48,806 nt of DNA from Candidatus Methylomirabilota bacterium (GTDB taxonomy: Bacteria; Methylomirabilota; Methylomirabilia; Rokubacteriales; CSP1-6): the NCBI GenBank assembly GCA_035455085.1, contig DATIFV010000163.1, positions 1 through 48,806 on the forward strand. The letters are read 5' to 3'. A program made the translations under genes and the position numbers. Numbering within the stretch: the first letter of the stretch is position 1; each line of letters begins with the position of its first letter. The notes beneath the pieces are model-generated. The model was not told the origin of the DNA. It searched no databases and was given only the letters and a program-made list of their open reading frames with translations. This document shows, piece after piece, positions 8,005-23,224 of the stretch.

Positions 8005-8606
8005 TGAAGGGCAAGGGCGAGCACGGCCGCACCACGGTGGCGCAGCTGCAGCTGCTGCTGGAGGCGGAGCGCGTCGCGGCCGCGACCGTCTCCGGCCTCA
8101 TCCCGATGGCGGCGACCCCGGCAACGGGCCGGCTCCTCGAGAAGCTCCGGGACGACGAGGCGTGGTCGTGCGCCGGCCTGACCCGGGTCATCCGGCATCT
8201 CGGCGGCAAGGTGTCGCCCGAGGACGGGAGCGTCGCGCCGCGGGTGCGGGGCGGGTCGTCGGTCCGGGAGCGCCTCGGGGGGCTCACCCGCGACCAGGCC
8301 CGGGTCGTGAAGCGCCTCGATCGGATCCTGAGCGAGGGGCTCGACCGGGAGAGCGGAGGGTTCCTGCGTCAGATGCGGTCGCTGCACGCGGAGAACGTGC
8401 ACCGCTGCGAGGAGCTCATCGCGACGCTCCCGGCGGGCGCCGCGGCGGGGCGCACGCGGCGGATGAGGCCGGTGTCCTCCGAGAACTCGACCAGCAGGGC
8501 CTGGCCCGGGGCGATCGTCACCTCCTCGTCGAGCTGCCAGCGCCGGGGCGCCGCGCCCGCGGCACTGTCCGCAGACCCGTCCGCCAGGGTCACGCCGAGC
8601 CGGTAG
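8004..8606 (+). CDS. ferritin-like DUF6306-type protein with long unstructured tail
   Basis: The ATG overlaps the mutase stop (TGATG). LLLEAERVAA...DEAWSCAGL...LTRDQARVVKRL...HAENV matches the pattern I recall for DUF6306. The last ~55 codons look like read-through tail and overlap the convergent gene. Confidence 0.6.
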   Translation: MKGKGEHGRTTVAQLQLLLEAERVAAATVSGLIPMAATPATGRLLEKLRDDEAWSCAGLTRVIRHLGGKVSPEDGSVAPRVRGGSSVRERLGGLTRDQARVVKRLDRILSEGLDRESGGFLRQMRSLHAENVHRCEELIATLPAGAAAGRTRRMRPVSSENSTSRAWPGAIVTSSSSCQRRGAAPAALSADPSARVTPSR

Positions 8607-9001
8607 CGGCCGGGGCGTACCGCCAGCTCCTCGTAGGCGAAGGTGGGCCCGTCCCGGCGCAGGCCGCCCGGTGAGTAGCGCCGCTCGAGCAGCACGCGGC
8701 CGTCGAGCTCCACGCGCAGCACCGTGTCCGTGCGCCGGCCGGTCTGGGCCCGCTCCGGGCTGGTCGGCCGCATGTGGCGCGGTAGCTTCTCGATCTCCTC
8801 CATCGAGCGCGCGGGCCCGGCGTGCTCGAAGGCGGCCACGTGCTTGAAGGCGACCCGGATCATCGCGGCCTCCTGATCCGAGGCGGCCCACGGATACGCC
8901 GCGAGCGCCCCCAGGCCCCAGGAGACGGCGCCCAGCAGCAGGGCGAAGCCCGCGAGCCGGCCGGGCCGCGGGCGGCGATCCTCGACGGCGGGCGCGGTCA
9001 C
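8369..9001 (-). CDS. membrane-anchored hypothetical protein, last gene of the oxidase operon
   Basis: The GTG at 9001 overlaps the TGA of the upstream gene (GTGA). One N-terminal hydrophobic helix (LAGFALLLGAVSWGLGALAAY) followed by a beta-rich domain. The C-terminal ~30 codons look like tail. Confidence 0.55.
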   Translation of the reverse strand: MTAPAVEDRRPRPGRLAGFALLLGAVSWGLGALAAYPWAASDQEAAMIRVAFKHVAAFEHAGPARSMEEIEKLPRHMRPTSPERAQTGRRTDTVLRVELDGRVLLERRYSPGGLRRDGPTFAYEELAVRPGRYRLGVTLADGSADSAAGAAPRRWQLDEEVTIAPGQALLVEFSEDTGLIRRVRPAAAPAGSVAMSSSQRCTFSACSDRI

Positions 9002-10662: not shown

Positions 10663-10664
10663 GC

Positions 10665-11561
10665 CTACCCCCGCTCCGCGAGCAGGCGCCCGAGTTCCTC
10701 GGCCTGGCGCTCCTCGGGATGGGCGAGGCCCCGATAGGTGAAGGCCAGGCGGCCGGCCCGATCGATGAAGGCCACGACGTTCTCGTGGGCGATCTCGCCG
10801 TCCGGCAGGGGCGCCCACTGCACCCGGTAGTCGCGGACGACCCGCCTCACCGTCGCGGGGTCGCCGCTCAGCAGATGCCAGCGCGGCCCGAGACCCCAGT
10901 GGGCGGCCGCCGCGGCCAGGGCGGCCGGCGTGTCCCGCTCTGGGTCGAGGCTCACCACCACGAAGGCGACCTCCGCCCGGGGCCGGCGGGCCTCGAGGGC
11001 CTTCAGGCGCTCGATCAGGAGCGGGCAGGAGGCGTGACAGCTCGCGTACGCGAACGTGAGCACCACCGGCCGGCCCCGGAAGCTCGCGAGCGAGACCGGC
11101 TGACCGCGATGGTCGACCAGACGGAGCTCCGGCGCCGGGGCCCCCTGGCGCAGCGGCGGCGGGAGCGTCGCCGGCGTGTAGCCCGTGCCGGAGGCCGAGA
11201 TCTCGCTGGTGGCGAGCAGCGAGGCGGCGAGGGCCATGAAGAGCAGCGGGGCCCCGATCGCGGCGAGCCGTCCCCCGCGCGCGCGGAGGAAGGCGCGCAG
11301 GTCGTCGCGATAGAACACGTACACCACCAGGGCGAAGAGGGGCGGCTGGAGCAGGGTCAGCAGGAGCGCGTCGAGACGGTAGTGCCGGGTCTCGGCGTTC
11401 CAGCCGAAGCATACGGTCAGGAGGGTATCGATCCACGGCGAGGATCCGCCCGCGAGCCCGGGGCCCAGCAGCAGGAAGGCGACGGTCCCGGCCCCCAGTC
11501 CGAAGATGGCCAGCACGAGGGCGGGCGCGAAGAGCCGGTGGGTCAGCAGGCCCGTCACCAT
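10665..11561 (-). CDS. SCO1/SenC copper chaperone with polytopic N-terminal membrane extension
   Basis: The ATG at 11561 overlaps the ctaB stop by 7 nt. Thioredoxin-fold motif FAYASCHASCP (CxxxC) plus a downstream His (IAHENV). About 120 N-terminal residues carry 3-4 hydrophobic segments. Confidence 0.8.
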   Translation of the reverse strand: MVTGLLTHRLFAPALVLAIFGLGAGTVAFLLLGPGLAGGSSPWIDTLLTVCFGWNAETRHYRLDALLLTLLQPPLFALVVYVFYRDDLRAFLRARGGRLAAIGAPLLFMALAASLLATSEISASGTGYTPATLPPPLRQGAPAPELRLVDHRGQPVSLASFRGRPVVLTFAYASCHASCPLLIERLKALEARRPRAEVAFVVVSLDPERDTPAALAAAAAHWGLGPRWHLLSGDPATVRRVVRDYRVQWAPLPDGEIAHENVVAFIDRAGRLAFTYRGLAHPEERQAEELGRLLAERG

Positions 11562-12424
11562 CTCCGGAGCCCCGCGTCCAGCACCACCCCCAGGAAGAGC
11601 AGCAGCAGGAACAGGTTCGAGGCGTGGAAGTTGGCCAGCGCGAGCCGCCGGTCCGTCGGCCGGCGGAGCAGCTCGAGGTTGCGGGCGAGGAGCAGGCCCC
11701 CGCCCGTCACCACGCCGACGAGCAGGTAGGGCCAGCCCAGCAGCCCCATCGCGAAGGGCAGCACGCTCGAGGCGAGCAGGCCCACCGTGTTCAGCAGGAT
11801 GCTGCGCGCGGTGCGGGCCTCGCCCTTCACCGCGGGCAGCATCGGGATCCGCGCGCCCGCGTAGTCGCTCTTGTAGGCAATGGCGAGCGACCAGAAGTGC
11901 GACGGGCTCCAGAAGAAGAGCACCGCCGCGAAGATGACCGGCGGCAGGCACAGCTCGGGACGGGCCAGCGCCCCGCCCGCGAGTACCGCGAAGGAGCCGG
12001 CGAGGCCCCCGATGACCACGTTGAGCCACGAGCGGCGCTTGAGCCAGATCGTGTAGATCACCACGTAGGTGAAGGCGCCGAGGAAGAGGTGCAGGGCCAC
12101 CAGGCGGTTCAGCCGCCACAGGGCCACGCTCACCGCGAGCGCGACGAGGCCGAGCCCCAGCGCCACGACGTGCCAGCCGTGGCGGATCTTTCCCGAGGGC
12201 AGGGGGCGCCGCGCGGTCCGGGGCATCCGGGCATCGAGATCGCGGTCGAGGAAGTGGTTGAGAGCCCCCGCGCCACCCGCCGCCATCACGGTCACCGCGA
12301 AGAGCAGCCCGAGCGACGGCAGCGACAGCCCCGCGGGCGCGGTGGCCAAGTAGCCCAGCACCGCGGCCATGCCGATGAAGGTTCCGACCCGGAGCTTGAG
12401 CGACTCGACGTAGGCGATGATCAT
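11555..12424 (-). CDS. ctaB: protohaem IX farnesyltransferase (haem O synthase)
   Basis: ATGA overlap with the upstream gene. UbiA-family motif NHFLDRDLDARMPRTARRPLPSG. 289 aa and polytopic. Confidence 0.9.
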   Translation of the reverse strand: MIIAYVESLKLRVGTFIGMAAVLGYLATAPAGLSLPSLGLLFAVTVMAAGGAGALNHFLDRDLDARMPRTARRPLPSGKIRHGWHVVALGLGLVALAVSVALWRLNRLVALHLFLGAFTYVVIYTIWLKRRSWLNVVIGGLAGSFAVLAGGALARPELCLPPVIFAAVLFFWSPSHFWSLAIAYKSDYAGARIPMLPAVKGEARTARSILLNTVGLLASSVLPFAMGLLGWPYLLVGVVTGGGLLLARNLELLRRPTDRRLALANFHASNLFLLLLFLGVVLDAGLRRW

Positions 12425-13848
12425 CGCGCACCTCCCCGTCGCAGGAGCGGGAGGCCCATGTTGATCACGAAGGCGAGCCCGCCCACGATGGCCAGCACCG
12501 AGCCCGCGCCCATCAGGTTCATCCCGATGAGCGCCTGCGCGTTGGCCCAGCTGAAGCCGAAGGTCTTGCGCGGCGCCCCGTGGCCGCCCGCCCAGTGCAT
12601 GCCGGCCATGATGCCGAGCAGCCCCAGCCCGTAGAGGTACGGCTGCCAGCGCGCCCAGCGCTCGCTCAGCGGGTGCCGGCCGGTCAGGCCCAGCAGCAGA
12701 GGGGTCAGGGCCATGTAGGAGAGGGTCACCGCGCCCACCATGCCGTGGTAGTGGGCGGGTACCCGCGTGTCCTGGGTGAAGCCGATGAGGCCCATCACGC
12801 CGCCGATCGCGAAGAGCGCGAACGAGACCACGGTGCCGCCGAAGAGGGGGCTGCCCCACGGCAGCGGCCGGGGCGCGGCGGCCACCACCGCCACCGCCAT
12901 GAAGAGCAGGGGCACCGCGCCCGCTCCGAGCCCGCCGAACGTCAGGATGGTGATCAGGTGATTGACGAGCAGCTCCTCGGGGCGCCACAGGAGATAGGCC
13001 GCGCCGGAGGCGACCGCGAACGGCGCCAGGATGGCCAGCAGCAGGCGCACGACGCGCCGGGCCGACGGGGCCATCCCGAGCGCCACCGCGAGCGCCACCA
13101 GCCAGCCCGTGGCCATGCCGGCCACGTGGAGGAACTGGAGCACGTGGCCGCCGCCCCAGACCACCGCCCGGAGCGTGTAGCCGAACGGCACCGCAGGGTC
13201 CGCGGCCGCGGCCGCGCGCATGAAGGCCGCGGCGGCCACGAGGACGGCGAGCGCCGCCACCGCCATCGCGAGGCCCTCGGGCGATTCGACCGCCACTCGC
13301 CCGCGCTCGCGCCGCAAGAGCACCGCCGCGGCTCCGCCCAGGTAGGCGGCGGCCTGGATGCCGACGCCGGCCCCGAGCAGGACGAGGCCGGTCCAGAAGA
13401 ACGGATGGTCGATCACCGGCAGGTAATCGTTCAGGTACGGCTGGCCCGAGGCGAGGAAGGCGGGCACCGCCATGGCCGCCGACCCGACCACCGACAGCCC
13501 GAGGGCGGCCCACGAGGCGGGGGCGCTCAGCGGATAGCCCGAGCGCCAGGCCACGTACACCCAGAGCACGCCCGCGAAGGCGACGAACCAGACCGTGAAG
13601 GCGAACGTCACGTGCGAGGTGAGCGCGAGACGGAACTGGGCGGCGTCGAAGAGGGTGTGGACCACCGGGGTGCGGGCGAAGGCGGCCAGCATGGCGAAGA
13701 AGCCCGCCACCACCAGCGAGCCCAGCGCCAGCCCGAGCCAGCCCACGATCAGGCGGCGCACGGGGCTCGGTACCGGCGAGGCCGGGTCGGCGCGCCGGCC
13801 GCGGTCGCGCGGCCGGCGATCGAGGAGGAAGGTCGCGTCGGGATTCAT
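12421..13848 (-). CDS. degenerate haem-copper oxidase subunit-I-like membrane protein (CuB His pair absent)
   Basis: 475 aa, starting 10 nt after the subunit I stop with a GGGGGTG RBS. Aligns by eye to the adjacent subunit I: the helix II His (TSHVTFAF), helix VI His (WGGGHVLQF) and helix X AHYHGMVGAV are retained. HHLLVDPQL of subunit I corresponds to AYLLWRPEEL here. Confidence 0.7.
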   Translation of the reverse strand: MNPDATFLLDRRPRDRGRRADPASPVPSPVRRLIVGWLGLALGSLVVAGFFAMLAAFARTPVVHTLFDAAQFRLALTSHVTFAFTVWFVAFAGVLWVYVAWRSGYPLSAPASWAALGLSVVGSAAMAVPAFLASGQPYLNDYLPVIDHPFFWTGLVLLGAGVGIQAAAYLGGAAAVLLRRERGRVAVESPEGLAMAVAALAVLVAAAAFMRAAAAADPAVPFGYTLRAVVWGGGHVLQFLHVAGMATGWLVALAVALGMAPSARRVVRLLLAILAPFAVASGAAYLLWRPEELLVNHLITILTFGGLGAGAVPLLFMAVAVVAAAPRPLPWGSPLFGGTVVSFALFAIGGVMGLIGFTQDTRVPAHYHGMVGAVTLSYMALTPLLLGLTGRHPLSERWARWQPYLYGLGLLGIMAGMHWAGGHGAPRKTFGFSWANAQALIGMNLMGAGSVLAIVGGLAFVINMGLPLLRRGGAR

Positions 13849-13858
13849 TGCGCACCCC

Positions 13859-15532
13859 CTACTTGATGATCCAGATGGCGGCCAGCCATTTCCAGTTGAG
13901 GAAGTAGTAGATGACGAAGGACGCCAGGAACACGAAGACGAGCACGAGGGTCCCCTTGATGGGCACGTGCTGCCCGCGGTCCTGGGGCAGCGCGGCCAGC
14001 GGCACCGCGCCCGCGGTGTCCGGCACCCGCCGCCCGAAGAGCACCGAGCCCACCGTGATCACCACGTAGAGGGCGCCGCCGGCCAGCGCGAAGAGCCCGC
14101 CCACGCCCATGATGCCGAGGAAGGCGAAGGCGGCCGCTTCCACCGGCGGCTGGAAGATCGACGAGGTGAACTGCACGTCCCAGTGCCGCCGCGGGATCGC
14201 GTAGGACCCGGCGGTGGTCATGCCGCCGATGAAGATGGTCATGCCGATGGCGAAGAGGTAGATCTGGGTCGTGGCGAGCTTCACCGAGATCAGATGCCGC
14301 CGGAAGATGAGCGGCACCACGTAGTACGTGAGTCCCATGAACGCGATGGTGGTGCCGGCGACCACGGTGGCGTGGAAGTGGCCGGTGATGCGCAGCGTGT
14401 TGTGGGAGATGATGTTGACCTGCTCGGCGCCGAAGGTGACGCCGGTGATGCCGCCGATGAAGCCGAAGAGCACCAGCGACAGGGCCAGCGCCGCGAAGCC
14501 CGGATTGCCCCACGGGGCCTTGGCCAGCCACTCGAAGAGCCCCTTGGTGAGCCCCTTCTTCCGCTGTGCGACCTCCACCGACGCGGGCACCGTCATCCCG
14601 TGGACCATGCTCGCGAGCACGGCCAGGTACATGCCGTAGCTGGTGTTCCAGATCTTCCACGCCGGCGAGAGCTGGGGATCCACGAGCAGATGGTGGGCGG
14701 AGGCCAGGTTGATGAAGAGGATGTAGAGGAGGAAGGCGGATCGGCAGACCTTCTCGTTCACCGGGGTCGCCCCCACCGTGAGGGTGGCCAGGAGGTACCA
14801 GATCGTGACCATGGCGCTCACGTTGATCTGCTGGGAGCTGTGCCCGAGGCCCCACCAGACCAGGCGGTAGATGCCGGGATCGATGGTCTGGATGATCCCC
14901 AGCGACCAGAGCCACGTGGGGACATAAATGATGGCCCCGTGGGCCAGGGTGACCACCGCGATGATGCCCGCGGTGGCGGCCCCGAAGGTCACCAGCGGGA
15001 TCGAGCCCTCGTACGTCCGCTCGGCCCGCGCGACCACCAGGCTCGCGAAGAAGTTGCAGACGCCGACGAGGGCGCCGACCGCGAACAGGATCCAGCCCAG
15101 GTAGAAGTAGGACACCGCCTGGAGGGGGGCGTAGGAGGTCATCATCACGTCGGCGCGGCCCGCGAGGATCGCGACGTCGATGAGCACCGAGCCTGCCACC
15201 ATGAGCGCGAACCCGAGCCAGCCCACCCGCGGCCAGGCGAGGCGGCTTCCCAGCACGATGGGCCCGGCAAAGTAGAGCACCGCGATCTCGAAGAAGATGA
15301 TCCAGAAGATCAGCATGTTGATGCCGTGGAAGGTCAGCGCTCGGTAGAAGCTCGTCGGGTCCAGCAGGTGGACGGCGGGCCAGCGGGTCAGCAGCACGAG
15401 AATTGCCGCGATGCCGCCGAAGAGGATGGAGAACACGCCGGCCACCGCGTGGACCTTGATGAGGCGCTCGGCGTGGTTGTGGACTCGGAGGCCGGTCTGG
15501 GCGCACGTTCTGAAGACGGCTTCGGTTGCCAT
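13859..15532 (-). CDS. haem-copper oxidase superfamily subunit I, B-family (ba3)-like, lacking the cross-linked Tyr
   Basis: 557 aa. AGGAGG RBS overlaps the subunit II stop. Metal ligands: LTFHGINML, WWGLGHSSQQ, ASAHHLLVDP, ITGHFHATV. Collinear with my recollection of Thermus CbaA, including LFEWLAKAPWGNPGF. Confidence 0.9.
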   Translation of the reverse strand: MATEAVFRTCAQTGLRVHNHAERLIKVHAVAGVFSILFGGIAAILVLLTRWPAVHLLDPTSFYRALTFHGINMLIFWIIFFEIAVLYFAGPIVLGSRLAWPRVGWLGFALMVAGSVLIDVAILAGRADVMMTSYAPLQAVSYFYLGWILFAVGALVGVCNFFASLVVARAERTYEGSIPLVTFGAATAGIIAVVTLAHGAIIYVPTWLWSLGIIQTIDPGIYRLVWWGLGHSSQQINVSAMVTIWYLLATLTVGATPVNEKVCRSAFLLYILFINLASAHHLLVDPQLSPAWKIWNTSYGMYLAVLASMVHGMTVPASVEVAQRKKGLTKGLFEWLAKAPWGNPGFAALALSLVLFGFIGGITGVTFGAEQVNIISHNTLRITGHFHATVVAGTTIAFMGLTYYVVPLIFRRHLISVKLATTQIYLFAIGMTIFIGGMTTAGSYAIPRRHWDVQFTSSIFQPPVEAAAFAFLGIMGVGGLFALAGGALYVVITVGSVLFGRRVPDTAGAVPLAALPQDRGQHVPIKGTLVLVFVFLASFVIYYFLNWKWLAAIWIIK

Positions 15533-15541
15533 GGGGGCCTC

Positions 15542-16069
15542 CTACTCGACCGTGATCTTGCCCACCATCTGGTGGTGCCCGATCCCGCAGAACTCGTTGC
15601 AGACCACGAAGACCTCGCCGCTCGTCGTCGGGGTGATGGTGAGCACGTACTCGTAGCCGGGCAGGACCATGAAGTTGAGGTTCAGGGGGAAGAGCGAGAA
15701 GCCGTGGACGAGGTCCATGGAGGACAGGTGCAGGCGGTAGGTCTCGCCCTTCTTGAGCTTGAGTGCCGGGTACCACTGCCAGAGCCTCCCCAGCATGTAG
15801 ACGTCCTGCGCGGGATCGGGGGCGATCACCGGCAGCCCCTTCTCTTCCCCGACCTTCGGTCCGGACTCGACGAAGGCCTCCACCTTCTCCATGTACTGCG
15901 CCGGGGTGGTCCGGTAGGTCTCGAAGGACGGGTTCTGGCCGCCCTTGAGATGCCAGAGCGGCATCATCGCGAAGAGGATGAGGCACCACAGGAGCGCGAT
16001 CGCGAGCCAGATCTTCTCGCTCGCGTCGACTTTCTTCCACCACACGCCCTTGAGAGTCTGCAGGCTCAT
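15542..16069 (-). CDS. haem-copper oxidase subunit II, short single-TM cupredoxin with complete CuA site
   Basis: 175 aa. DLVHGFSL plus CNEFCGIGHHQM (C-x3-C-x3-H-x2-M). No cytochrome c domain. Confidence 0.9.
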   Translation of the reverse strand: MSLQTLKGVWWKKVDASEKIWLAIALLWCLILFAMMPLWHLKGGQNPSFETYRTTPAQYMEKVEAFVESGPKVGEEKGLPVIAPDPAQDVYMLGRLWQWYPALKLKKGETYRLHLSSMDLVHGFSLFPLNLNFMVLPGYEYVLTITPTTSGEVFVVCNEFCGIGHHQMVGKITVE

Positions 16070-16078
16070 GGCGGTCTC

Positions 16079-16240
16079 CTACCTCGCAACCGGGATGGTG
16101 GCGATCTCGAACAGGCCCCAGATCGTGTAGAAGACCACCGGGACCGTGAGCCCGAGCACCAGCAGCAGGAAGATGTTGTCGAAGAACACCTGGGCCAGCG
16201 GCACCCGGTCGTCGTCCTTGGCGGTCTCTTTGTCGGCCAT
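16079..16240 (-). CDS. 53-aa single-TM protein, putative oxidase subunit IIa-like; not in ORF track
   Basis: ATG at 16240 preceded by GGAGGGG. MADKETAKDDDRVPLAQVFFDNIFLLLVLGLTVPVVFYTIWGLFEIATIPVAR. The stop lies 9 nt before the subunit II ATG. Confidence 0.6.
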   Translation of the reverse strand: MADKETAKDDDRVPLAQVFFDNIFLLLVLGLTVPVVFYTIWGLFEIATIPVAR

Positions 16241-16317: not shown

Positions 16318-16335
16318 CTATGACCTGGGTCATAG
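16318..16335. promoter_or_regulatory. 18-bp palindrome CTATGACCTGGGTCATAG, putative Crp/Fnr-type operator of the oxidase operon
   Basis: Perfect 8+2+8 palindrome. Its centre is ~86 nt upstream of the ATG at 16240. TACGCT (TAnnnT) lies 21 nt downstream on the - strand, a class-II-like geometry. Confidence 0.6.
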
Positions 16336-16413: not shown

Positions 16414-17478
16414 CTAGTGCCCGCCCGTCCCGTGGGTGCCCGGCACCAGCGTCCGGAAGATGCCGGGCTGCTCGGCGCCCGCCACCTCCAGGACCCCGAG
16501 GGCGCCCTTCTCCATCGCCCGCACGATGCTGTGGTCCACGAGCAGGAAGCGCCCCGGCACCTGCACCGTCATCTCCACGATGGCCGCGCCGCCCGCCGGG
16601 ATCAGGGTGGTCTGCACGTTCTGGGCCGGAGCGCCGGCGCCCAGCGCGCCCTCGGTGTAGACGTGGTCGAAGATCTCGCCGATCACGTGGAAGGAGGAGA
16701 TGAGGTTGGGCCCGCCGTTGCCCACGAAGAGCCGGACCTGCTCGCCGACCTTCGCGTGGATCGCCCCCTCGCCCGCGAGCGCGCCCATCTTGCCGTTGAA
16801 CACCACGTACTCGGGCCGCTCCGCGGTCAGCTTGGCCGGATCGAGCGGCTGGAGCCCCGGCGCGAGCGTCCTGCCCTTGGTATAGAACTCGCCCTGCATG
16901 ACGTAGTACTCGCGGTCCACGCGGGGCAGCCCCTTCTCGGGCTCGACGAGGATCAGCCCGTACATGCCGTTGGCGATGTGCGCGGGCACGCTCGGGGTCG
17001 CGCAGTGATAGACGTAGAGCCCGGGGTTCAGCGCCTTGAACTCGAAGGCGCCTTCCTGGCCCGGCCCCAGCTGGGTCACCGCCGCGCCGCCGCCCGGCCC
17101 GGTCACCGCGTGCAGGTCGATCGAGTGCGGGTGCATGCTCTTCTCCGCGTTCCTGAGGCGGATCTGCACGACGTCACCCACGCGCACCCGGACGAAGGGA
17201 CCCGGCACCGTGCCGCCGAAGGTCCAGAACGTGTACCGCACGCCGTCGGCGAGGGTGCCCGTGACCTCGGTGGTCTCGAGATCGACGATCACCTTCGCGT
17301 TGCCGGGGCGGTCCACCGGCGGCGGCACGAGCGGGGCCGAGGTGAGGATGGCCTTCACTTCCGGGAGCGCGGCGGGCTCGGCGGCCTTGTCGCGGGCCTG
17401 GCTCTGCCAGATCATCGCGCCCGCCACCAGCAGCCCGGCCGTTGCCAGCGTCGTCATCGTGGTCAACCCCCGTCTCAT
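16414..17478 (-). CDS. nirK: copper-containing nitrite reductase
   Basis: 354 aa with a signal-like N-terminus. Type-2 Cu motif [14 protein letters not shown] and type-1 Cu motif [29 protein letters not shown]. Confidence 0.92.
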
Positions 17479-17599: not shown

Positions 17600-17617
17600 G
17601 TATGACGCGGCTCATAG
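17600..17617. promoter_or_regulatory. palindrome gTATGACGCGGcTCATAG, putative Crp/Fnr-type operator upstream of nirK
   Basis: Same 7-N4-7 motif with a mismatch at the outermost position and one inside the right arm. Centre ~130 nt upstream of the nirK ATG. CATCCT lies 21 nt downstream. Confidence 0.5.
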
Positions 17618-17685
17618 GCTGGATGACGGGGTGCGGGGCGGTGGCGCCTCACGGTGAGGCACCGTCTCCGCGCAGGAGATGCGGG

Positions 17686-17973
17686 CTAGGGGCGGGGGTC
17701 CAGGGCGATGCGGTCGGGGGTCCAGGGCGGCTCGAAGGTGATGGCCACCTCGACGGCCTCGACACCCGGGATCCGCGCGACCGCCTGCCGCACCCACCCG
17801 GCCATGGAGTCGTGGAGAGGGCAGCCCGGCGCGGTCAGGGTCATGGTGACCTGCACGCGGCCGCCGTCGATCTGCACGCCGTAGATCAGCCCGAGATCCA
17901 CGATGGACATCCCGAGCTCGGGATCGAAGACGTCCCGGAGCGCCTGCGTGACCTGCCCGTGGGTGACGCTCAC
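17686..17973 (-). CDS. DUF59 (SufT/MIP18-like) metal-sulfur cluster assembly factor
   Basis: The GTG overlaps the radical SAM stop (GTGA). DPELGMSIVDLGLIY...LTAPGCPLHD...PPWTPDRI. Confidence 0.8.
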   Translation of the reverse strand: MSVTHGQVTQALRDVFDPELGMSIVDLGLIYGVQIDGGRVQVTMTLTAPGCPLHDSMAGWVRQAVARIPGVEAVEVAITFEPPWTPDRIALDPRP

Positions 17974-19115
17974 GCGTGGACCTCCCGCACGACGGGCTCG
18001 TGGGCGCACCCCGGATCCTCCGCCAGCGGGTTTCCGGTGAGCGCGTAGGCCCGCGCGCGGCTGCCCCCGCAGCGCTCGCGCCACTCGCAGCGCCCGCAGC
18101 GGCCCCCGAGCCGCGCCGGATCGCGCAGGGCCACGAAGAGCGGGTGCTCCCGGTAGACCGCGACGAGGTCGTCTCGCCGGACATTGCCGACCGGCAGCGG
18201 CAGGAACCCGCTCGGGCAGATGTCGCCGCGATGGTCCACGAAGACGAAGCCGTTGCCATCGGTGACCGCGCGCCCGGCGCGCATGCTTGGCCGCCCGCCG
18301 GATGTCCGAGACGGTTGTCCGCCGCTGGGGGAGTGCGGGGGCCATGTCTGGGCCCCCGCAGCTGAAGAGCTTGAAGAAGTAAACCAGTCTGCCCTCGCCG
18401 CCTCCGCGAGGACACGGTGGTAATGCGGGGCCTCCGTCGTCTTGATCCCGAAGGGGACGCGGCCCTGGAGGTCGGCCGCCCAGTGCAGCGCCTCCTCGAT
18501 CTCGCCGGCGGTGAGGCCCTGGTCGACCTGGGCGCGCCCTACCGGGATGAGGAAGAAGAGCGCCCAGAGGAGCACGCCGAAGCCGGTCACCTGGTTCACC
18601 AGTGCGGGCAGCTCCTTCACGGTCTGGCGGCAGACGGTCGTGTTGACCTGCAGCCCGAGCCCGAGCGCCCGCGCCCGCTCGATGATCCGGAGGGTGTAAC
18701 GGTGGGAGCCCCGCACGCCCCGGAAGGCGTCGTGGGTCTCCGGCCCGGCGCCGTCGAGGCTCACCGCGAGGCGGGCCAGCCCCGCATCCCGCAGGGCGCG
18801 GAGCTTGCCCTCGGTCACGGCGGCGGTTGCGCTCGGGGTCAGCGACACCATCAGGCCCCGGCGCGTGCCGTGCGCGACCAGCTCGGCGATGTCGGGACGC
18901 CGCAGCGGGTCTCCACCGGTCAGGACCACGAGCGGCGGCGGATCGCCGAAGGCGGCGATGCGGTCGAGCAGCGCCTTGCCCTCGTCGGTGGTGAGCTCGC
19001 CCGGATCGCGGCGCGGGATGGCCGCGGCCCGGCAGTGCACGCAGGCCAGCGCGCACGCCCGCGTCGTCTCCCAGATCGCGATGAAGGGGCTCCACGCGAA
19101 CACCGATGTCTCCAT
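17970..19115 (-). CDS. radical SAM/SPASM enzyme, NirJ/AhbD-like
   Basis: WETTRACALACVHCRA (CxxxCxxC), LTGGDPLRRPD, and a C-terminal SPASM Cys cluster CGRCEWRERCGGSRARAY. The ATG at 19115 lies 1 nt after the upstream stop. An alternative GTG start is at 19124. Confidence 0.85.
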   Translation of the reverse strand: METSVFAWSPFIAIWETTRACALACVHCRAAAIPRRDPGELTTDEGKALLDRIAAFGDPPPLVVLTGGDPLRRPDIAELVAHGTRRGLMVSLTPSATAAVTEGKLRALRDAGLARLAVSLDGAGPETHDAFRGVRGSHRYTLRIIERARALGLGLQVNTTVCRQTVKELPALVNQVTGFGVLLWALFFLIPVGRAQVDQGLTAGEIEEALHWAADLQGRVPFGIKTTEAPHYHRVLAEAARADWFTSSSSSAAGAQTWPPHSPSGGQPSRTSGGRPSMRAGRAVTDGNGFVFVDHRGDICPSGFLPLPVGNVRRDDLVAVYREHPLFVALRDPARLGGRCGRCEWRERCGGSRARAYALTGNPLAEDPGCAHEPVVREVHA

Positions 19116-19116
19116 G

Positions 19117-20430
19117 TCACCCACGCGCCGCCAGCGTGTGTCCCGCCTCCTCGCGGGTCGGTCGTCCGCCAGCCGAGAGCCGCCTCAGCACCCGCGCGAG
19201 CGCTCCCGCGAACGCGAGCGCGCCCAGCGCGAGCACGCCGCCGGCCATGCGGATCAGGACGGCGTCGCCGACGAGGACGGTGACGGCCAGCAGCGCCGTT
19301 CCGCCGGTGAGCAGCACGTAGGCCAGCCCCTCCGCCCGCGGCCAGGAGATCTGCGCCAAGGTCGGCACCGGCTCGCGGCCCGCGCGCGGGCTGTACGCGC
19401 GGTACCAGACCAGGAACGGGACGATCTTGAGCATCATCCCGGCGATGGTGAGGGAGACCCAGCCGCCCAGCGTCACGACGGCGTAGGCGAGCGCCACGCG
19501 GGGCCCGCCGAGGAGATCCGCGGCCATCGCCACCCCGAGAACGGCGGCGGGGGCGAGGAACGCGGCGGCGGTGAGGACGAAGCGGAGCCCCCAGTCGAGA
19601 CCGGGCCGCTTTCGCCGCCACGCCATCTCTGCCATCCAGGCCGCGTGGGCTCCCGCTGCCACCGCCACCGCGAGCGCGCCGATCACGAGGAGCCCCGGCA
19701 CCCCGAGGAGGCCCAGCACCACCGCCGGCCCGCCGGCCACGAGGCCCCAGAGCTGCAGGGCGGAGTGCGCCGGCCGGGGCGCGGGGGCGAGGAAGAACAT
19801 CGGATACACGCGTGCGGACACGGCGGCGATCATCGGCGCCACCCAGCCGAGGAGGGCCAGCTGCACGTGAGCGTGCAGGGTCGGGAAGAGCTCCCCCGGG
19901 AGGAACGGCCAGATGCGGTTGACCGCCAGGGCCAGGCCGAACACGGTCGTCAGGGCGAGCCCGCCGTAGCCGACCACGACGAGCCGCGCGGTGAACGTCC
20001 AGCGGTCGAAGCCCTGCAGGCTCATCCCGACGTTGACCAGGTGCGCGACGATGCCCACCGCCAGCATCCCCGCCGCGGACGCCAGCCCGGGCCAGGTGCC
20101 CAGGTAGAAGTGGGCGACCATGCCGATCACCGCGACCGCCAGGACGGCGAGCTCCCAGCGGGCGAGCCGCTCGCTCCAGATCGGCCGCTCGAGCACGATC
20201 GGGACGAGCTGGTAGCTGGCGCCCAGGATCGCGATCGTGATCCAGCCGAGCGTGACGGTGTGGGTGAGCGCGAGCAGTCGCGGGTGGTAGTAGTGGCCTG
20301 CCAGCTCGGGGCCGAGCCAGGTCACCCCGAGCGCGGCCGTCAGGAAGGCCGCCGCGGAGCAGACCAGGTAGGCCAGCGGGACGAGGGGCGAGGGGCCGCT
20401 TCCGGGCCGCGGCGGCACCGGCATGCTCAT
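19117..20430 (-). CDS. polytopic (about 12 TM) His-motif membrane protein, NnrS-like
   Basis: 437 aa. ATGA overlap with the upstream gene. Repeated module LTHTVTLGW...ASYQLVP / TLHAHVQLALLGW...ARVYPMF. The family assignment is from memory of the NnrS HAHE motif and is not verified. Confidence 0.6.
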   Translation of the reverse strand: MSMPVPPRPGSGPSPLVPLAYLVCSAAAFLTAALGVTWLGPELAGHYYHPRLLALTHTVTLGWITIAILGASYQLVPIVLERPIWSERLARWELAVLAVAVIGMVAHFYLGTWPGLASAAGMLAVGIVAHLVNVGMSLQGFDRWTFTARLVVVGYGGLALTTVFGLALAVNRIWPFLPGELFPTLHAHVQLALLGWVAPMIAAVSARVYPMFFLAPAPRPAHSALQLWGLVAGGPAVVLGLLGVPGLLVIGALAVAVAAGAHAAWMAEMAWRRKRPGLDWGLRFVLTAAAFLAPAAVLGVAMAADLLGGPRVALAYAVVTLGGWVSLTIAGMMLKIVPFLVWYRAYSPRAGREPVPTLAQISWPRAEGLAYVLLTGGTALLAVTVLVGDAVLIRMAGGVLALGALAFAGALARVLRRLSAGGRPTREEAGHTLAARG

Positions 20431-21269
20431 GCCGGGCCCCTGCGGATGAGGATGCGCACCAGTCCCGGCTCCGGCTCGTCGGTCTGGTGGACGAAGCCGC
20501 GCTCGTCGAGCTGCGGGTAGAGGAACATCGGGCGGCGCTCGTGGCGGACCTCGAGCTCCGAGCCCGGCTCGAGCCGGTCGATTGCCTCCAGCACCCGCAC
20601 CATGGGCTGCGGCGGCTCGAGCCCCCGCACGTCCAGCACGGTGCGCCCGCGCGGGGCGGGCGCGGGCGGCGCCGCCGGCTCTGCGCGCGGAGCGGCGGCG
20701 GCGCGGTAGAAGGCGACGGACCAGTCGTCGTCGGCGCGGCGCTCCGTCCAGTGCGCGAAGCCGCGCTTGGCCAGCACGTCGTAGAGCGGGATGGGCTCGA
20801 AGGGCGCGCGGAGTACCAGCGCCTGGTCGGCGTTCAGCGCCTTGACCGCGGCCATGATGCGCGGGAACGGCTCCCGGCCCAGGCGGATGTCCTCGCGCAC
20901 GTCGACGTGGACTTGGCGGGCCTCCGGCACGTCGACGAGCGCGCGCGGCGGCCCACCCTCACCCCGGCCCTCTCCCTCGAAGGGGGCCGTCCCGCCTCTC
21001 GCCTCGGGGGAGACGGCAGGGTGAGGGGGCCCAGGGTGAGGGGCTTCCGGCGACGCCTCCCCCACCGCCTGCCGCAGCACGGCCAGGAGCTCGTCCACCG
21101 GAACGCCGGCCATGCCGGCGGCCTCGGCGACGGTCACGCGCGGCGCCATGACCCCCCGGAGCAGCGGGTTCCGGAGCTGGCCGAAGTGCGGGTGGTAGCC
21201 GGCCAGCACCTCGACCAGCTCCGGATGCTCGTCGAGCAGCCGGGCCACCGTGACGTCGCCCGAGATCAT
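20427..21269 (-). CDS. DUF1858 + two DUF2249 domains protein
   Basis: Starts at the ATG at 21269 (MISGDVTVARLLDEHPELVEVL). Two SirA/TusA-like repeats (VHVDVREDIRLGREPF...; VLDVRGLEPPQPMVRVLEAI...). The linker is encoded by REP-like repeats. Confidence 0.75.
   Translation of the reverse strand: MISGDVTVARLLDEHPELVEVLAGYHPHFGQLRNPLLRGVMAPRVTVAEAAGMAGVPVDELLAVLRQAVGEASPEAPHPGPPHPAVSPEARGGTAPFEGEGRGEGGPPRALVDVPEARQVHVDVREDIRLGREPFPRIMAAVKALNADQALVLRAPFEPIPLYDVLAKRGFAHWTERRADDDWSVAFYRAAAAPRAEPAAPPAPAPRGRTVLDVRGLEPPQPMVRVLEAIDRLEPGSELEVRHERRPMFLYPQLDERGFVHQTDEPEPGLVRILIRRGPA
20952..21043. repeat. REP-like element copies B1/B2 (head-to-head) inside the DUF1858/DUF2249 coding sequence
   Basis: CCACCCTCACCCCGGCCCTCTCCCTCGAAGGGGG (reverse orientation), then CCGCCTCTCGCCTCGGGGGAGACGGCAGGGTGAGGGGG plus an extra CCCAGGGTGAGGGG. 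Confidence 0.65.
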
Positions 21270-21340
21270 GCGGGGGTCTTTCCCTCGAGCGCGCCGAGCA
21301 GGGTGACGGCGACCGGGGCGTCGCTGCACTCGTGAGCCAT
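21266..21340 (-). CDS. 24-codon upstream ORF (MAHECSDAPVAVTLLGALEGKTPA) coupled to the DUF1858 gene; not in ORF track
   Basis: ATG at 21340 with GAGGAGG 6 nt upstream. Its TGA overlaps the ATG at 21269 (ATGA). Confidence 0.45.
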   Translation of the reverse strand: MAHECSDAPVAVTLLGALEGKTPA

Positions 21341-21385
21341 GTCGATCCTCCTCGCTGCCACCCTAGCGCCGGATCGTCGGGCTCC

Positions 21386-21403
21386 CTATGACGTCGGTCA
21401 TAG
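21386..21403. promoter_or_regulatory. palindrome CTATGACGTCGGTCATAG, putative Crp/Fnr-type operator of the DUF1858 operon
   Basis: Perfect 7-N4-7 palindrome. TAGGGT lies 20 nt downstream on the - strand, followed by the RBS of the upstream ORF. Confidence 0.6.
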
Positions 21404-22780: not shown

Positions 22781-23224
22781 ATGACTCCGCTCATCCGGCG
22801 CTACATCAAGACGAGCTTCCTCTTCCTGCTCGTCGGGCTCCTGCTCGGGGCCTACATCGTGGTCGGCCAGTTCGTCCTCGAGGAGTACCCGCCCCGTCTG
22901 CTCGTCACGGCCCACGCCCACCTGCTGCTGGTCGGCTTCATGCTGATGATGGTCATGGGGGTCGCCACCTGGATGTTCCCGCGCCCGGCGCGCGACGACA
23001 CCCGGTACCGGCCCGAGCTGGCCGAGGCGGTCTACTGGGTGATGACGACCGCCACCGCGCTGCGGGCGGCGGCCGAGATCAGCGTGGGGCTCGCCGGGAT
23101 GCTCGGACTGCGGTGGCTCATCGCGCTGGGCGGGCTGGGGCAGCTGGCCGGGACCGCGCTCTTCGTGCTGAACATGTGGCGGCGCGTGCGCATGCCGCCC
23201 GCGGCGGCGCCCCCCGCCCGCTGA
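22781..23224 (+). CDS. 4-TM His-motif membrane protein, single-module paralogue of the 12-TM protein
   Basis: The ATG lies 1 nt after the crp-family stop. PPRLLVTAHAHLLLVGFMLMMVMGVATWMFP parallels HPRLLALTHTVTLGWITIAILGASYQLVP of the 437-aa protein. Confidence 0.7.
   Translation: MTPLIRRYIKTSFLFLLVGLLLGAYIVVGQFVLEEYPPRLLVTAHAHLLLVGFMLMMVMGVATWMFPRPARDDTRYRPELAEAVYWVMTTATALRAAAEISVGLAGMLGLRWLIALGGLGQLAGTALFVLNMWRRVRMPPAAAPPAR

What the first reader, a model, noticed from the sequence alone, without database searches (positions are those of the whole stretch)
17686..21340. Operator-controlled operon of unknown function: DUF1858/DUF2249, 12-TM His-motif protein, radical SAM/SPASM, DUF59
Four genes (five with the upstream ORF) are tightly coupled by ATGA, TGAcATG and GTGA junctions. 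They sit directly upstream of nirK under the same palindrome. The operon combines a putative NO/redox-associated DUF1858-DUF2249 protein, an NnrS-like polytopic membrane protein, a NirJ/AhbD-like radical SAM enzyme and an Fe-S assembly DUF59 protein. The radical SAM enzyme resembles anaerobic haem-modifying enzymes. The adjacent oxidase operon has haem O synthase but no haem A synthase. A role in oxygen-independent maturation of the haem or metal cofactors of the neighbouring enzymes is one speculative reading.
Basis: inference. Interest (0 to 1): 0.65.

Follow-up and report, generated by a model that had tools for sequence, protein, structure and literature searches.

The report
Nitrite-respiration helper operon with anaerobic haem synthase
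This is a real, conserved operon of an uncultured Methylomirabilota/Rokubacteria bacterium that joins a widespread three-gene nitric-oxide-stress module to an oxygen-independent haem-making enzyme, and it is switched on together with the nitrite reductase and nitric oxide reductase genes beside it.

Summary
Four minus-strand genes (17686-21269) are joined by ATGA, TGAcATG and GTGA junctions. The fifth "upstream ORF" is a 24-codon deletion remnant of a ScdA_N gene. The palindrome TATGAC-N4-GTCATA occurs three times (0.21 expected): before this operon, before nirK and before the neighbouring oxidase-like operon.

The operon is composite. Its core is DrpB-like protein (DUF1858 + 2xDUF2249), a 12-helix haem-copper-oxidase homologue, and DUF59. 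These three genes are directly adjacent in 58 of 80 distant low-GC metagenome loci, often next to NsrR-type regulators, RIC/YtfE-like proteins, qNOR or nos genes, and never with the radical SAM gene.

The radical SAM enzyme meets the NCBIfam TIGR04053 cutoff and is closest to AhbD. In 24 Chloroflexota species the same family lies between hemH and hemY in complete haem operons. It is therefore most likely an oxygen-independent coproheme decarboxylase, inserted into the module in Methylomirabilota and fused to DUF59 in 21 of 31 species.

The "oxidase" next door lacks the active-site tyrosine (Gln instead), the eNOR signature.

The closest parallel is Bradyrhizobium nnrR-DUF1858-hemN2-nirK. All functions are inferred. 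I rate it a new variant of a known kind, of moderate interest.

The parts
21387..21402 (.). Operator 1: perfect palindrome TATGACCGACGTCATA. Its centre lies 41.5 nt upstream of the start site predicted from a TAGGGT -10-like hexamer (21365-21360).
   Evidence: The palindrome, -10-like hexamer and Shine-Dalgarno sequence are conserved in L002, L005 and L011. The same site precedes the first gene of the module in about 27 related loci.
21266..21340 (-). 24-codon remnant of a ScdA_N gene (MAHEC...KTPA), still overlapping the next gene by ATGA.
   Evidence: DNA alignment A4 shows an in-frame internal deletion relative to the 82-83-aa ScdA_N genes of L002, L005 and L011 (PF04405 on those genes).
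20427..21269 (-). DrpB-like protein, 280 aa: DUF1858 followed by two DUF2249 (TusA-like) domains.
   Evidence: Pfam. This is the same three-domain architecture described for Thermus thermophilus DrpB (PMC6282519). The gene is adjacent to the oxidase homologue in 22 of 31 Methylomirabilota loci and 73 of 80 low-GC loci.
19117..20430 (-). 12-helix haem-copper-oxidase homologue, 437 aa. His57 and His188 are invariant across the family, within a near-conserved HxH motif.
   Evidence: The Pfam COX1 hit is below threshold (22.4 bits against 34.8). The AlphaFold model has 12 helices, pLDDT 70 and pTM 0.72. Foldseek gives NorB 3o0r_B at TM 0.58 and cbb3 CcoN at TM 0.60-0.62, probability 1.0. Conserved residues come from alignment A3 and the profile alignment to helix X of CcoN.
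17970..19115 (-). AhbD-like radical SAM enzyme, TIGR04053 family, 381 aa. It has CX3CX2C at C24/C28/C31 and CX2CX5CX20C at C343/C346/C352/C373.
   Evidence: NCBIfam: TIGR04053 scores 451.8 against a cutoff of 395; AhbD scores 298 against 500. Cysteines from alignment A1. Haem-operon relatives. Tree.
18335..18359 (.). Perfect hairpin GCGGGGGCC-N7-GGCCCCCGC inside a variable insert of the radical SAM gene.
   Evidence: The insert varies in copy number among relatives.
17686..17973 (-). DUF59 / FeS_assembly_P protein, 95 aa, with the conserved TAPGCP cysteine.
   Evidence: Pfam 83.9 bits. It is fused to the radical SAM enzyme in 21 of 31 Methylomirabilota species and to the oxidase homologue in distant relatives P0283, P0317 and P0333.
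17601..17616 (.). Operator 2 (TATGAGCCGCGTCATA on the minus strand), 130 nt upstream of the nirK start codon.
   Evidence: The same spacing of 129-132 nt occurs in 10 related loci.
16414..17478 (-). Copper nitrite reductase NirK, followed by a terminator-like hairpin at 16348-16365.
   Evidence: NCBIfam TIGR02376 scores 340.5 against a cutoff of 296.3. Terminator scan.
16319..16334 (.). Operator 3 (perfect TATGACCCAGGTCATA on the minus strand; TATGACCTGGGTCATA as reported on the plus strand), upstream of the oxidase-like operon.
   Evidence: The identical site lies before the small-subunit/COX2 genes in L008, L009 and L011; variants of the same palindrome occupy that position in L014 and L036.
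8369..16240 (-). eNOR-type nitric oxide reductase operon. It encodes a 53-aa subunit, a CuA subunit II, subunit I with Gln in place of the cross-linked Tyr, a second COX1-like protein, UbiA haem O synthase, SCO1, a cytochrome b-Fer4-FlpD protein and an unknown protein.
   Evidence: Pfam. Alignment to T. thermophilus ba3 shows HPIVY changed to HSSQQ. The Gln substitution is the eNOR signature (PMC8756737).
22078..22779 (+). Divergent CRP/FNR-family regulator, 233 aa, with no cysteine. It is the likely binder of the palindrome.
   Evidence: Pfam cNMP_binding plus HTH_Crp_2. It is adjacent and divergent in relatives. Binding itself is inferred.
22781..23224 (+). Four-helix single-unit oxidase homologue, 147 aa, co-transcribed with the regulator.
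   Evidence: Pfam COX1 scores 36.5 bits over model positions 3-146. It is present in 17 of 31 Methylomirabilota loci.

Best explanation
This is a denitrification and nitric-oxide-stress accessory operon made of two parts.

Part 1, the core module. It consists of a DrpB-like protein (DUF1858 + 2xDUF2249), a 12-helix haem-binding homologue of the oxidase/NOR catalytic subunit, and a DUF59 iron-sulfur maturation factor. This three-gene module occurs in many phyla. There it sits next to NO-responsive regulators, RIC/YtfE-type iron-centre repair proteins and NO or N2O reductases.

Part 2, the inserted enzyme. It is an AhbD-like radical SAM enzyme (TIGR04053). It most likely performs the oxygen-independent decarboxylation of coproheme to haem b. 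In Methylomirabilota it was inserted between the membrane protein and DUF59, and it is often fused to DUF59.

Regulation. A cysteine-free CRP/Dnr-type activator encoded divergently is proposed to bind TATGAC-N4-GTCATA at about -41.5. It would switch on this operon together with nirK and an eNOR-type NO reductase.

Working model. When nitrite respiration begins, oxygen is scarce and NO is produced. The operon then (a) keeps haem b synthesis going without O2 or H2O2 for the haem-rich respiratory enzymes, and (b) protects or rebuilds NO-sensitive iron-sulfur and haem centres, including the radical SAM enzyme's own iron-sulfur clusters, through DUF59, the DrpB-like protein and the membrane haem protein.

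Shown here: gene structure, family assignments, operator sites, conservation, gene fusions, haem-operon context of the family, and the predicted fold.

Inferred: the enzyme's reaction, haem binding by the membrane protein, the role of DUF59, and the identity and signal of the regulator.
For: Operon and operator.
- Overlapping junctions were read from the sequence.
- There are 3 operator sites against 0.21 expected.
- Across 90 related loci there are 67 sites in 1.16 Mb, almost all intergenic. They lie before the module (27), before nirK (13), before the oxidase-like operon (7) and before stand-alone radical SAM genes. None lies in Chloroflexota haem operons.

Radical SAM enzyme.
- TIGR04053 scores 451.8 against a cutoff of 395, and the next best model is AhbD haem b synthase at 298.
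- In 24 Chloroflexota species loci the same family (450.7 bits for the one member scored, L079) is flanked by ferrochelatase (20 loci), HemY-type oxidase (21), HemE (18), HemL (16) and HemB (15).
- The neighbour-joining tree follows taxonomy, and each genome appears once among the 80 loci kept.
- 93 of 354 positions are at least 95% conserved across both contexts, including all seven cluster cysteines.
- The C-terminal motif matches the auxiliary-cluster motif of NirJ, AhbC and AhbD (PMC10114771).
- Reviews already predict an AhbD-like enzyme for the anaerobic coproporphyrin-dependent route (PMC10114771; PMC13564367).

Core module.
- DrpB-like, oxidase homologue and DUF59 are directly adjacent in 58 of 80 low-GC loci. 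Neighbours include an Rrf2 regulator (23 loci), DUF2249-ScdA_N-hemerythrin (14), qNOR and NosD.
- Fusions exist between DUF59 and the radical SAM enzyme and between DUF59 and the oxidase homologue.
- DUF59-DUF1858 fusions are reported in PMC4982691.

Fold and context.
- The fold matches NorB and CcoN at TM 0.58-0.62, with two family-invariant histidines.
- The neighbouring enzyme carries the eNOR Gln signature.
- Precedent: B. diazoefficiens nnrR, a DUF1858 protein, hemN2 and nirK are clustered and all are NnrR targets (PMC6710368).
Against: - No member of TIGR04053 has been assayed. The AhbD model's own cutoff is not met (298 against 500).
- The Methylomirabilota and Chloroflexota enzymes are only about 50% identical, and 29 positions are conserved but different between the two groups. 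A changed substrate is therefore possible.
- I could not check whether these genomes use the coproporphyrin route or carry chdC, because only 49 kb of this genome is available.
- Haem binding by the membrane protein is inferred from two histidines and a model of only moderate confidence (pLDDT 70) built from a shallow alignment.
- The function of the three-gene module is unknown everywhere. In Thermus, DrpB was interpreted as a signal transducer rather than a maturation factor.
- The regulator-operator pairing rests on adjacency and site geometry only.
Confidence: 0.55

Rival explanations
1. The radical SAM enzyme has taken on a new job in this lineage. It might mature the adjacent membrane homologue or the eNOR. 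One possibility is oxygen-independent formation of the modified haem (haem A/As type) that eNOR uses. Another is a protein cross-link. In either case it would not be making ordinary haem b.
For: - The gene is tightly coupled to the membrane protein and fused to DUF59 in 21 of 31 species.
- The eNOR studied from R. marinus uses haem As in both sites, and many eNOR operons carry the O2-dependent CtaA (PMC11214002).
- This operon has UbiA haem O synthase but no CtaA.
- Twenty-nine positions are conserved but different from the haem-operon clade, several with charge changes.
- Many SPASM-type enzymes modify proteins.
Against: - The enzyme falls in the same NCBIfam equivalog, with the same score, as members sitting between hemH and hemY.
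- The tree looks like vertical descent of one gene per genome, with no long branch.
- All cluster ligands and many charged residues are shared with the haem-operon clade.
- L001 keeps the module and nirK without the radical SAM gene.
- Stand-alone copies under the same operator exist away from the module (L022, L033, L061).
Confidence: 0.12
2. The operon is mainly a sensing and signalling device. The membrane haem protein would sense NO or redox state. The DrpB-like protein would relay the signal to the CRP-type regulator, as proposed for DrpA/DrpB acting on DnrS/DnrT in Thermus. The radical SAM and DUF59 genes would be merely co-regulated passengers.
For: - In Thermus, DrpB is membrane-associated, and its loss deregulates the nar and dnr promoters (PMC6282519).
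- The module sits beside regulators in both settings: CRP here, Rrf2/NsrR-type in 23 low-GC loci.
- A four-helix homologue is co-transcribed with the regulator.
Against: - The fusions of DUF59 to the membrane protein and to the radical SAM enzyme argue for a physical metallocofactor role rather than pure signalling.
- Thermus drpAB mutants also lose nitrate reductase activity despite normal protein levels, which the authors link to cofactor maturation.
- There is no DrpA partner and no nar operon in this window.
Confidence: 0.2
3. The genes are neighbours by chance and do not work together.
For: One relative (L001) lacks the radical SAM gene, and the ScdA_N gene is decayed in this window.
Against: - Stop and start codons overlap at three junctions and are one base apart at the fourth.
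- The gene order is conserved in 22-24 of 31 Methylomirabilota species. It also appears in the one Tectomicrobia locus (L051) and, in part, in two of the ten Gaiellales loci.
- The three-gene core is adjacent in 58 of 80 distant loci.
- There are three independent kinds of gene fusion.
Confidence: 0.02

Closest known systems
Bradyrhizobium diazoefficiens nnrR - bsl7085 (DUF1858 protein) - hemN2 - nirK cluster, the NnrR regulon (PMC6710368)
   Same: - A CRP/FNR-family NO-responsive regulator lies beside a DUF1858-containing protein, an oxygen-independent radical SAM haem-biosynthesis enzyme and nirK.
- Each has its own regulator box.
- hemN2 is needed for denitrification.
   Different: - The haem enzyme there is HemN (coproporphyrinogen dehydrogenase of the protoporphyrin route), not an AhbD-like coproheme decarboxylase.
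- No oxidase homologue or DUF59 is reported in that cluster.
- The box there is TTGCGC-N2-GCGCAA-like, whereas here it is TATGAC-N4-GTCATA.
AhbD haem b synthase (TIGR04545; Methanosarcina barkeri, Desulfovibrio)
   Same: - It is the best-scoring characterised family (298 bits).
- It has the same CX3CX2C motif and a near-identical C-terminal CX2CX5C...C cluster motif.
- Relatives of the window enzyme sit where a coproheme decarboxylase is expected in haem operons.
   Different: - The window enzyme scores below the AhbD cutoff of 500 and belongs to a separate NCBIfam family (TIGR04053) that has no tested member.
- There are no AhbA/B/C genes nearby.
- It is fused or coupled to DUF59.
Thermus thermophilus DrpB (PMC6282519)
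   Same: - It has the same three-domain architecture (DUF1858 + 2xDUF2249).
- It is expressed under a CRP-family denitrification regulator (DnrT).
- It is linked to N-oxide respiration.
   Different: - In Thermus it pairs with periplasmic DrpA downstream of the nar operon.
- Here it pairs with a membrane oxidase homologue and DUF59, next to nirK.
- Sequence similarity to Thermus DrpB was not measured.
HCO-homology (HCOH) proteins including NnrS (Pei, Li, Kinch and Grishin 2014, Protein Sci; recalled from the abstract, since the paper could not be read here)
   Same: - It has twelve helices in three four-helix units.
- Only two histidines are conserved.
- Its genomic context is denitrification and NO detoxification, and an association with DUF2249 is noted (as cited in PMC11218638).
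   Different: - It is not NnrS itself, since there is no PF05940 hit.
- I could not check whether this exact family and its DUF59 partner were described in that paper.
SufT / DUF59 Fe-S maturation factors (PMC4982691)
   Same: - It has a DUF59 domain with the conserved reactive cysteine.
- SufT helps Fe-S protein maturation when demand is high.
- DUF59-DUF1858 fusions exist.
   Different: - It scores below the SufT equivalog cutoffs (105.7 against 143.4).
- It is not next to sufBC.
- It is coupled to a radical SAM enzyme and a membrane haem protein.

Membership tests
TIGR04053 radical SAM/SPASM family (NCBIfam equivalog) | Whole-protein score at or above the curated cutoff of 395 bits | tested here: met
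   451.8 bits, E = 1.9e-135, covering model positions 6-366 of 366.
TIGR04053 radical SAM/SPASM family (NCBIfam equivalog) | Radical SAM CX3CX2C motif plus a C-terminal cysteine-rich auxiliary-cluster region | tested here: met
   C24/C28/C31 and C343-x2-C346-x5-C352-x20-C373 are invariant in alignment A1 and at least 95% conserved in 77 family members. Pfam SPASM (PF13186) itself did not hit at E <= 0.01.
AhbD haem b synthase (TIGR04545) | Score at or above the curated cutoff of 500 bits | tested here: not met
   298.2 bits. It is the closest characterised family, but the protein is not a member by NCBI's threshold.
AhbD haem b synthase (TIGR04545) | Converts coproheme to haem b with SAM | not testable with these tools
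   Only context supports it: same-family genes lie between hemH and hemY in 20-21 of 24 Chloroflexota loci.
NirJ / AhbC / PqqE / MftC | Score at or above each family's cutoff | tested here: not met
   NirJ2 188.5 against 500; NirJ 152 against 515; AhbC 144.5 against 650; MftC 114.8 against 265; PqqE 110.7 against 381.
NnrS (Pfam PF05940) | Match to the NnrS profile | tested here: not met
   The only Pfam match at E <= 0.01 is COX1. The same holds for ten distant family members.
Haem-copper oxidase / NOR catalytic subunit (PF00115) | Pfam gathering score of 34.8 bits | tested here: not met
   22.4 bits, E = 6.5e-5. Some distant relatives do pass (P0261 at 54.7 bits).
Haem-copper oxidase / NOR catalytic subunit (PF00115) | Twelve-helix fold of subunit I | tested here: met
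   The AlphaFold model has 12 helices. Foldseek gives probability 1.0 and TM 0.55-0.62 to NorB, CcoN and ba3 subunit I. Model confidence is moderate.
Haem-copper oxidase / NOR catalytic subunit (PF00115) | Six canonical histidine ligands for two haems and CuB/FeB | tested here: not met
   Only H57 and H188 are invariant across 50 diverse members. H46, H49 and H262 are invariant only within Methylomirabilota.
Three-unit HCOH proteins (Pei et al. 2014) | Twelve helices, two conserved histidines, and a denitrification or NO-detoxification context | tested here: met
   The family definition is recalled from the abstract, because the paper was not readable.
DrpB (Thermus thermophilus) | N-terminal DUF1858 plus two tandem DUF2249 domains | tested here: met
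   DUF1858 at residues 22-82 of the 300-aa ORF translated from the upstream GTG at 21329 (residues 2-62 of the 280-aa protein), plus two DUF2249 stretches. The architecture is as described in PMC6282519.
DrpB (Thermus thermophilus) | Bicistronic with drpA downstream of the nar operon | tested here: not met
   There is no single-domain DUF2249 drpA-like gene and no nar genes in the window.
SufT (DUF59 Fe-S assembly factor) | DUF59 domain with the conserved cysteine | tested here: met
   PF01883 scores 83.9 bits, and the TAPGCP motif is present.
SufT (DUF59 Fe-S assembly factor) | Equivalog score and suf operon context | tested here: not met
   TIGR02945 scores 105.7 against 143.4, and TIGR03406 scores 88.4 against 202.6. 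There are no suf genes nearby.
eNOR-type nitric oxide reductase (the neighbouring enzyme) | B-family-like subunit I with Gln in place of the cross-linked Tyr, plus a cupredoxin subunit II | tested here: met
   HPIVY of T. thermophilus ba3 aligns with HSSQQ. COX2 subunit. Signature from PMC8756737 Table A4. No phylogenetic placement was done.
Class II CRP/FNR-activated promoter | Inverted repeat centred near -41.5, and a cognate regulator that binds it | tested here: inconclusive
   All three sites lie 22-23 nt upstream of a -10-like hexamer (TAGGGT, CATCCT, TACGCT; the nirK one does not fit TAnnnT). The generic sigma-70 scan found no promoter. Transcription start sites and binding are untested.

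The most novel reading that the evidence does not exclude
The membrane oxidase homologue, DUF59 and the AhbD-like enzyme may form one membrane-bound complex. In it, the haem protein would accept the electron that each propionate-to-vinyl step must lose, and would hand finished haem directly to respiratory enzymes. The acceptor for AhbD/HemN-type enzymes is still unknown. The three-gene module on its own would be a general NO-resistant metallocofactor delivery or repair machine. A bolder variant is that the enzyme supplies an oxygen-independent route to the modified haem of eNOR.
Probability: 0.15. Interest if true: 0.8.

Novelty: new variant of a known kind. Interest (0 to 1): 0.5.

Why it matters
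[quoted passage not shown] Reviews call this step 'AhbD-like' and note it is unproven. The context evidence is strong: hemH-rSAM-hemY in Chloroflexota, and co-regulation with nirK and eNOR in Methylomirabilota.
- It defines a three-gene module (DUF1858-DUF2249 protein, oxidase homologue, DUF59). The module has no known function but recurs in at least hundreds of metagenome contigs next to NO-responsive regulators, RIC proteins and N-oxide reductases.
- The gene fusions predict physical partners. This gives a way into three families of unknown function at once.
- It suggests how abundant soil Methylomirabilota/Rokubacteria may equip a NirK plus eNOR pathway that produces N2O.

Tried and rejected
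Papers that could not be used.
- Pei et al. 2014 (PMC4243994) and Dailey et al. 2017 (PMC5312243) are not held. The HCOH definition is therefore from memory of the abstract.
- 'TIGR04053' appears in no searchable paper.

Computations that failed or misled.
- The first all-against-all BLAST of stop-to-stop ORFs timed out.
- Picking the longest ORFs in 70%-GC DNA selected antisense shadow ORFs. I replaced it with a caller based on third-codon-position GC (GC3), which reproduced the gene calls recorded for L002.
- Alignment A5 was too diverse for the metagenome scan, so A6 was used.
- One NCBIfam call failed because L056 carries a frameshift.
- The listing of cluster members returned no informative names for distant oxidase homologues.
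- The sigma-70 scan found no promoter in 16000-22300.

Ideas considered and rejected.
- NnrS membership: there is no Pfam hit.
- A peptide-maturase reading (PqqE/MftC-like): all scores are far below cutoffs and there is no precursor peptide gene.
- An oxygen-independent haem A synthase: kept only as a low-probability rival.

Not done.
- A second structure prediction, because the tool returns no interface information.
- A third homologous-protein search, because only near-identical hits are listed.

Full report
WHAT IS THERE

The window is 72% G+C. The closest relatives of its proteins come from Methylomirabilota/Rokubacteria metagenome bins.

Four genes lie on the minus strand between 17686 and 21269.
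- A 280-aa protein with DUF1858 and two DUF2249 domains.
- A 437-aa polytopic membrane protein whose only Pfam match is a sub-threshold hit to cytochrome oxidase subunit I.
- A 381-aa radical SAM enzyme.
- A 95-aa DUF59 protein.

I read the junctions directly from the sequence.

That tiny ORF (21340-21266, 24 codons) is not a gene in its own right. Aligned with three relatives, it is what remains of an 82-83-aa ScdA_N gene after an in-frame internal deletion.

THE OPERATOR

TATGAC-N4-GTCATA occurs three times in the window against 0.21 expected. It lies before this operon, before nirK and before the next operon downstream.

Each site sits 22-23 nt upstream of a -10-like hexamer (TAGGGT, CATCCT, TACGCT). 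That puts its centre near -41.5, the geometry of class II CRP/FNR-activated promoters. This step is an inference: transcription starts are unknown, and the generic promoter scan found nothing.

The palindrome, the -10-like hexamer and the ribosome-binding site are conserved in relatives.

I surveyed the 90 loci fetched up to that point and found 67 sites in 1.16 Mb, nearly all intergenic.
- 27 lie before the first gene of the module.
- 13 lie before nirK, ten of them at a fixed distance of 129-132 nt.
- 7 lie before the oxidase-like operon.
- Others lie before radical SAM genes that stand alone.
- None lies in Chloroflexota haem operons.

A 233-aa CRP-family protein without any cysteine is encoded divergently. 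It is the obvious candidate binder. The site can also be read as TATGA-N6-TCATA, a CRP-like layout.

THE RADICAL SAM ENZYME

It passes the curated cutoff of NCBIfam TIGR04053 (451.8 against 395). The next best model is AhbD haem b synthase (298, cutoff 500), then NirJ2, NirJ and AhbC. PqqE and MftC are far lower.

It has the CX3CX2C motif and a C-terminal CX2CX5CX20C motif. That is the auxiliary-cluster motif described for NirJ, AhbC and AhbD (PMC10114771).

A scan of one genome per species returned 80 loci. I called genes with a GC3-based caller that reproduced the recorded calls for L002. I then clustered the products and named clusters with Pfam. Two contexts appeared.
- In 24 Chloroflexota species the gene lies in the order hemA, hemCD, hemB, hemL, hemE, hemH, rSAM, hemY. 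Ferrochelatase is present in 20 loci and the HemY-type oxidase in 21.
- In 31 Methylomirabilota species it lies after the membrane protein (24 loci) and the DrpB-like gene (22 loci).

Sampled members from both contexts pass the TIGR04053 cutoff with similar scores (446-488 bits). A neighbour-joining tree follows taxonomy with no long branch, and each genome appears once among the 80 loci kept. Across both contexts, 93 of 354 aligned positions are at least 95% conserved, including every cluster cysteine and many arginines.

Reviews state that an AhbD-like enzyme probably replaces the O2/H2O2-dependent ChdC in anaerobic coproporphyrin-dependent haem synthesis, but that this is unproven. The most economical reading is that this gene is that enzyme. 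I put about two chances in three on this.

THE OTHER THREE GENES

The membrane protein.
- Its AlphaFold model has 12 helices, pLDDT 70 and pTM 0.72.
- The model matches NorB, cbb3 CcoN and ba3 subunit I at TM 0.55-0.62 with probability 1.0.
- An exhaustive search found 1,811 cluster representatives at E <= 0.001.
- In 50 diverse members only His57 and His188 are invariant.
- A profile search aligns both histidine motifs with the haem-binding HVH motif in helix X of CcoN. This fits three four-helix repeats and probably one bis-histidine haem.
- It is not NnrS by Pfam.

DUF59 links.
- Distant members of the membrane family are fused to DUF59.
- Close relatives of the radical SAM enzyme are also fused to DUF59.
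- A close relative, L001, has the DrpB-like gene (there lacking the DUF1858 domain), the membrane protein, DUF59 and nirK with no radical SAM gene at all.

To see the membrane family away from Methylomirabilota, I scanned metagenome contigs with an alignment of distant members. The result was 80 low-GC loci (median G+C 35%).
- The DrpB-like gene is present in 73 and DUF59 in 65.
- The three genes are directly adjacent in that order in 58. Most exceptions are cut by contig ends.
- No radical SAM gene is present.
- Neighbours include an Rrf2/NsrR-type regulator (23 loci), a DUF2249-ScdA_N-hemerythrin protein resembling RIC/YtfE (14 loci), qNOR, a nos cluster and nirK-like genes.

The core is therefore an N-oxide-associated three-gene module found across phyla. 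The radical SAM gene is a lineage-specific insertion into it.

NEIGHBOURS

NirK passes its equivalog cutoff.

The 'oxidase' subunit I aligns with Thermus ba3, but has HSSQQ where ba3 has HPIVY. The cross-linked tyrosine is replaced by glutamine, which is the eNOR signature (PMC8756737).

Its operon also encodes a second COX1-like protein, a UbiA haem O synthase, SCO1 and a cytochrome b-ferredoxin-FlpD fusion. It has no CtaA.

The cluster is thus nirK plus an eNOR-type NO reductase plus the accessory operon, all behind the same operator.

HOW IT MOST LIKELY WORKS

Low oxygen and/or NO would activate the CRP-type regulator. NirK then makes NO and the eNOR-type enzyme removes it.

The accessory operon supplies haem b without oxygen. 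It also keeps NO-sensitive iron-sulfur and haem centres assembled.

DUF59 proteins are Fe-S maturation factors needed when demand is high (PMC4982691). In Thermus, loss of DrpA/DrpB leaves nitrate reductase protein present but inactive, which the authors link to cofactor maturation.

The closest described arrangement is in Bradyrhizobium diazoefficiens. There nnrR, a DUF1858 protein, the oxygen-independent haem enzyme hemN2 and nirK are clustered, and all are NnrR targets (PMC6710368). The present operon looks like the coproporphyrin-pathway counterpart of that arrangement, enlarged by the oxidase homologue and DUF59.

RIVALS

- The enzyme could have a new substrate in this lineage, for example a haem modification for eNOR. 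The eNOR studied uses haem As, and CtaA is absent here. Shared family, tree and residues argue against this. I give it 0.12.
- The module could be mainly a signalling device, as proposed for DrpB. The DUF59 fusions argue for a cofactor role. I give it 0.2, and it is not exclusive of the main model.
- Chance adjacency is excluded by conservation and fusions.

NOVELTY AND VERDICT

Every part belongs to a family that is already named or predicted. The logic of an anaerobic haem enzyme in a denitrification regulon is known.

What I did not find described is this assembly:
- the three-gene module as a unit;
- its fusions with DUF59;
- the capture of the AhbD-like gene;
- the shared operator with nirK and eNOR.

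I rate it a new variant of a known kind, interest 0.5. All functional statements are inferences from sequence, context and literature. None has been tested.

Noticed in passing
window 13859-15532 (-), operon 8369-16240: The 'cytochrome oxidase' subunit I has Gln where Thermus ba3 has the cross-linked Tyr237 (HPIVY changed to HSSQQ), which is the eNOR signature. The operon also carries a second, weak COX1-like gene (12421-13848), UbiA haem O synthase and SCO1, but no CtaA. The eNOR that has been studied uses haem As.
   Followed up: partly
window 18300-18385 (hairpin 18335-18359): A variable insert lies between the radical SAM core and its Cys-rich tail. It contains a perfect hairpin, GCGGGGGCC-N7-GGCCCCCGC. 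In relatives the encoded motif AGAQ(T/K)WPPHSP occurs in zero to more than five tandem copies at this spot. The same motif occurs at the C-terminal tail of the membrane protein, and once it is read in another frame (P0134). It looks like a small palindromic mobile repeat that is tolerated in-frame.
   Followed up: partly
window 21266-21340: The ScdA_N gene that heads the operon in relatives has been reduced here to a 24-codon ORF by an in-frame deletion. It keeps its start codon, ribosome-binding site and ATGA overlap. In four Methylomirabilota loci (L026, L028, L029, L039) the operator lies directly before the DrpB-like gene, with no ScdA_N gene between them.
   Followed up: yes
L059-L086 (Chloroflexota loci), e.g. 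L067 2833-10572: These are complete haem operons in the order hemA, hemCD, hemB, hemL, hemE, hemH, TIGR04053 rSAM, hemY. The radical SAM gene occupies the place where a coproheme decarboxylase would be expected.
   Followed up: yes
window 8998-10662 (-): A 554-aa fusion of a cytochrome b domain, a 2x[4Fe-4S] ferredoxin domain and an FlpD domain lies at the end of the eNOR-type operon. It is conserved in eight of the 80 genome loci (mostly Methylomirabilota; cluster C21). It may be the electron-input module.
   Followed up: partly
window 23235-25484 (-): A PAS/HisKA/HATPase/receiver hybrid histidine kinase lies between the four-helix oxidase homologue and the PNPOx-like gene (25515-26141). In L002-L004 and L001 those two genes are adjacent, so the kinase looks like an insertion.
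   Followed up: no
L013, L015, L016, L022 and NC10 loci L048, L050, L088: In some Methylomirabilota and NC10 genomes the radical SAM gene stands outside the module. In L013, L015 and L016 it heads a CopD-COX2-COX1-SCO1 operon. It still carries the same operator, or TATGAT-N4-GTCATA, just upstream.
   Followed up: partly
window 46164-47371 (-): Two overlapping ORFs near the end of the window look like an IS3-type transposase pair. This is judged by eye from the translations and was not checked with any tool.
   Followed up: no
window 21420-21887 (-): A conserved 155-166-aa protein with an N-terminal hydrophobic, lipoprotein-like segment and no Pfam match lies just upstream of the operator on the same strand. 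It is present in L001-L005, L011 and L012.
   Followed up: no
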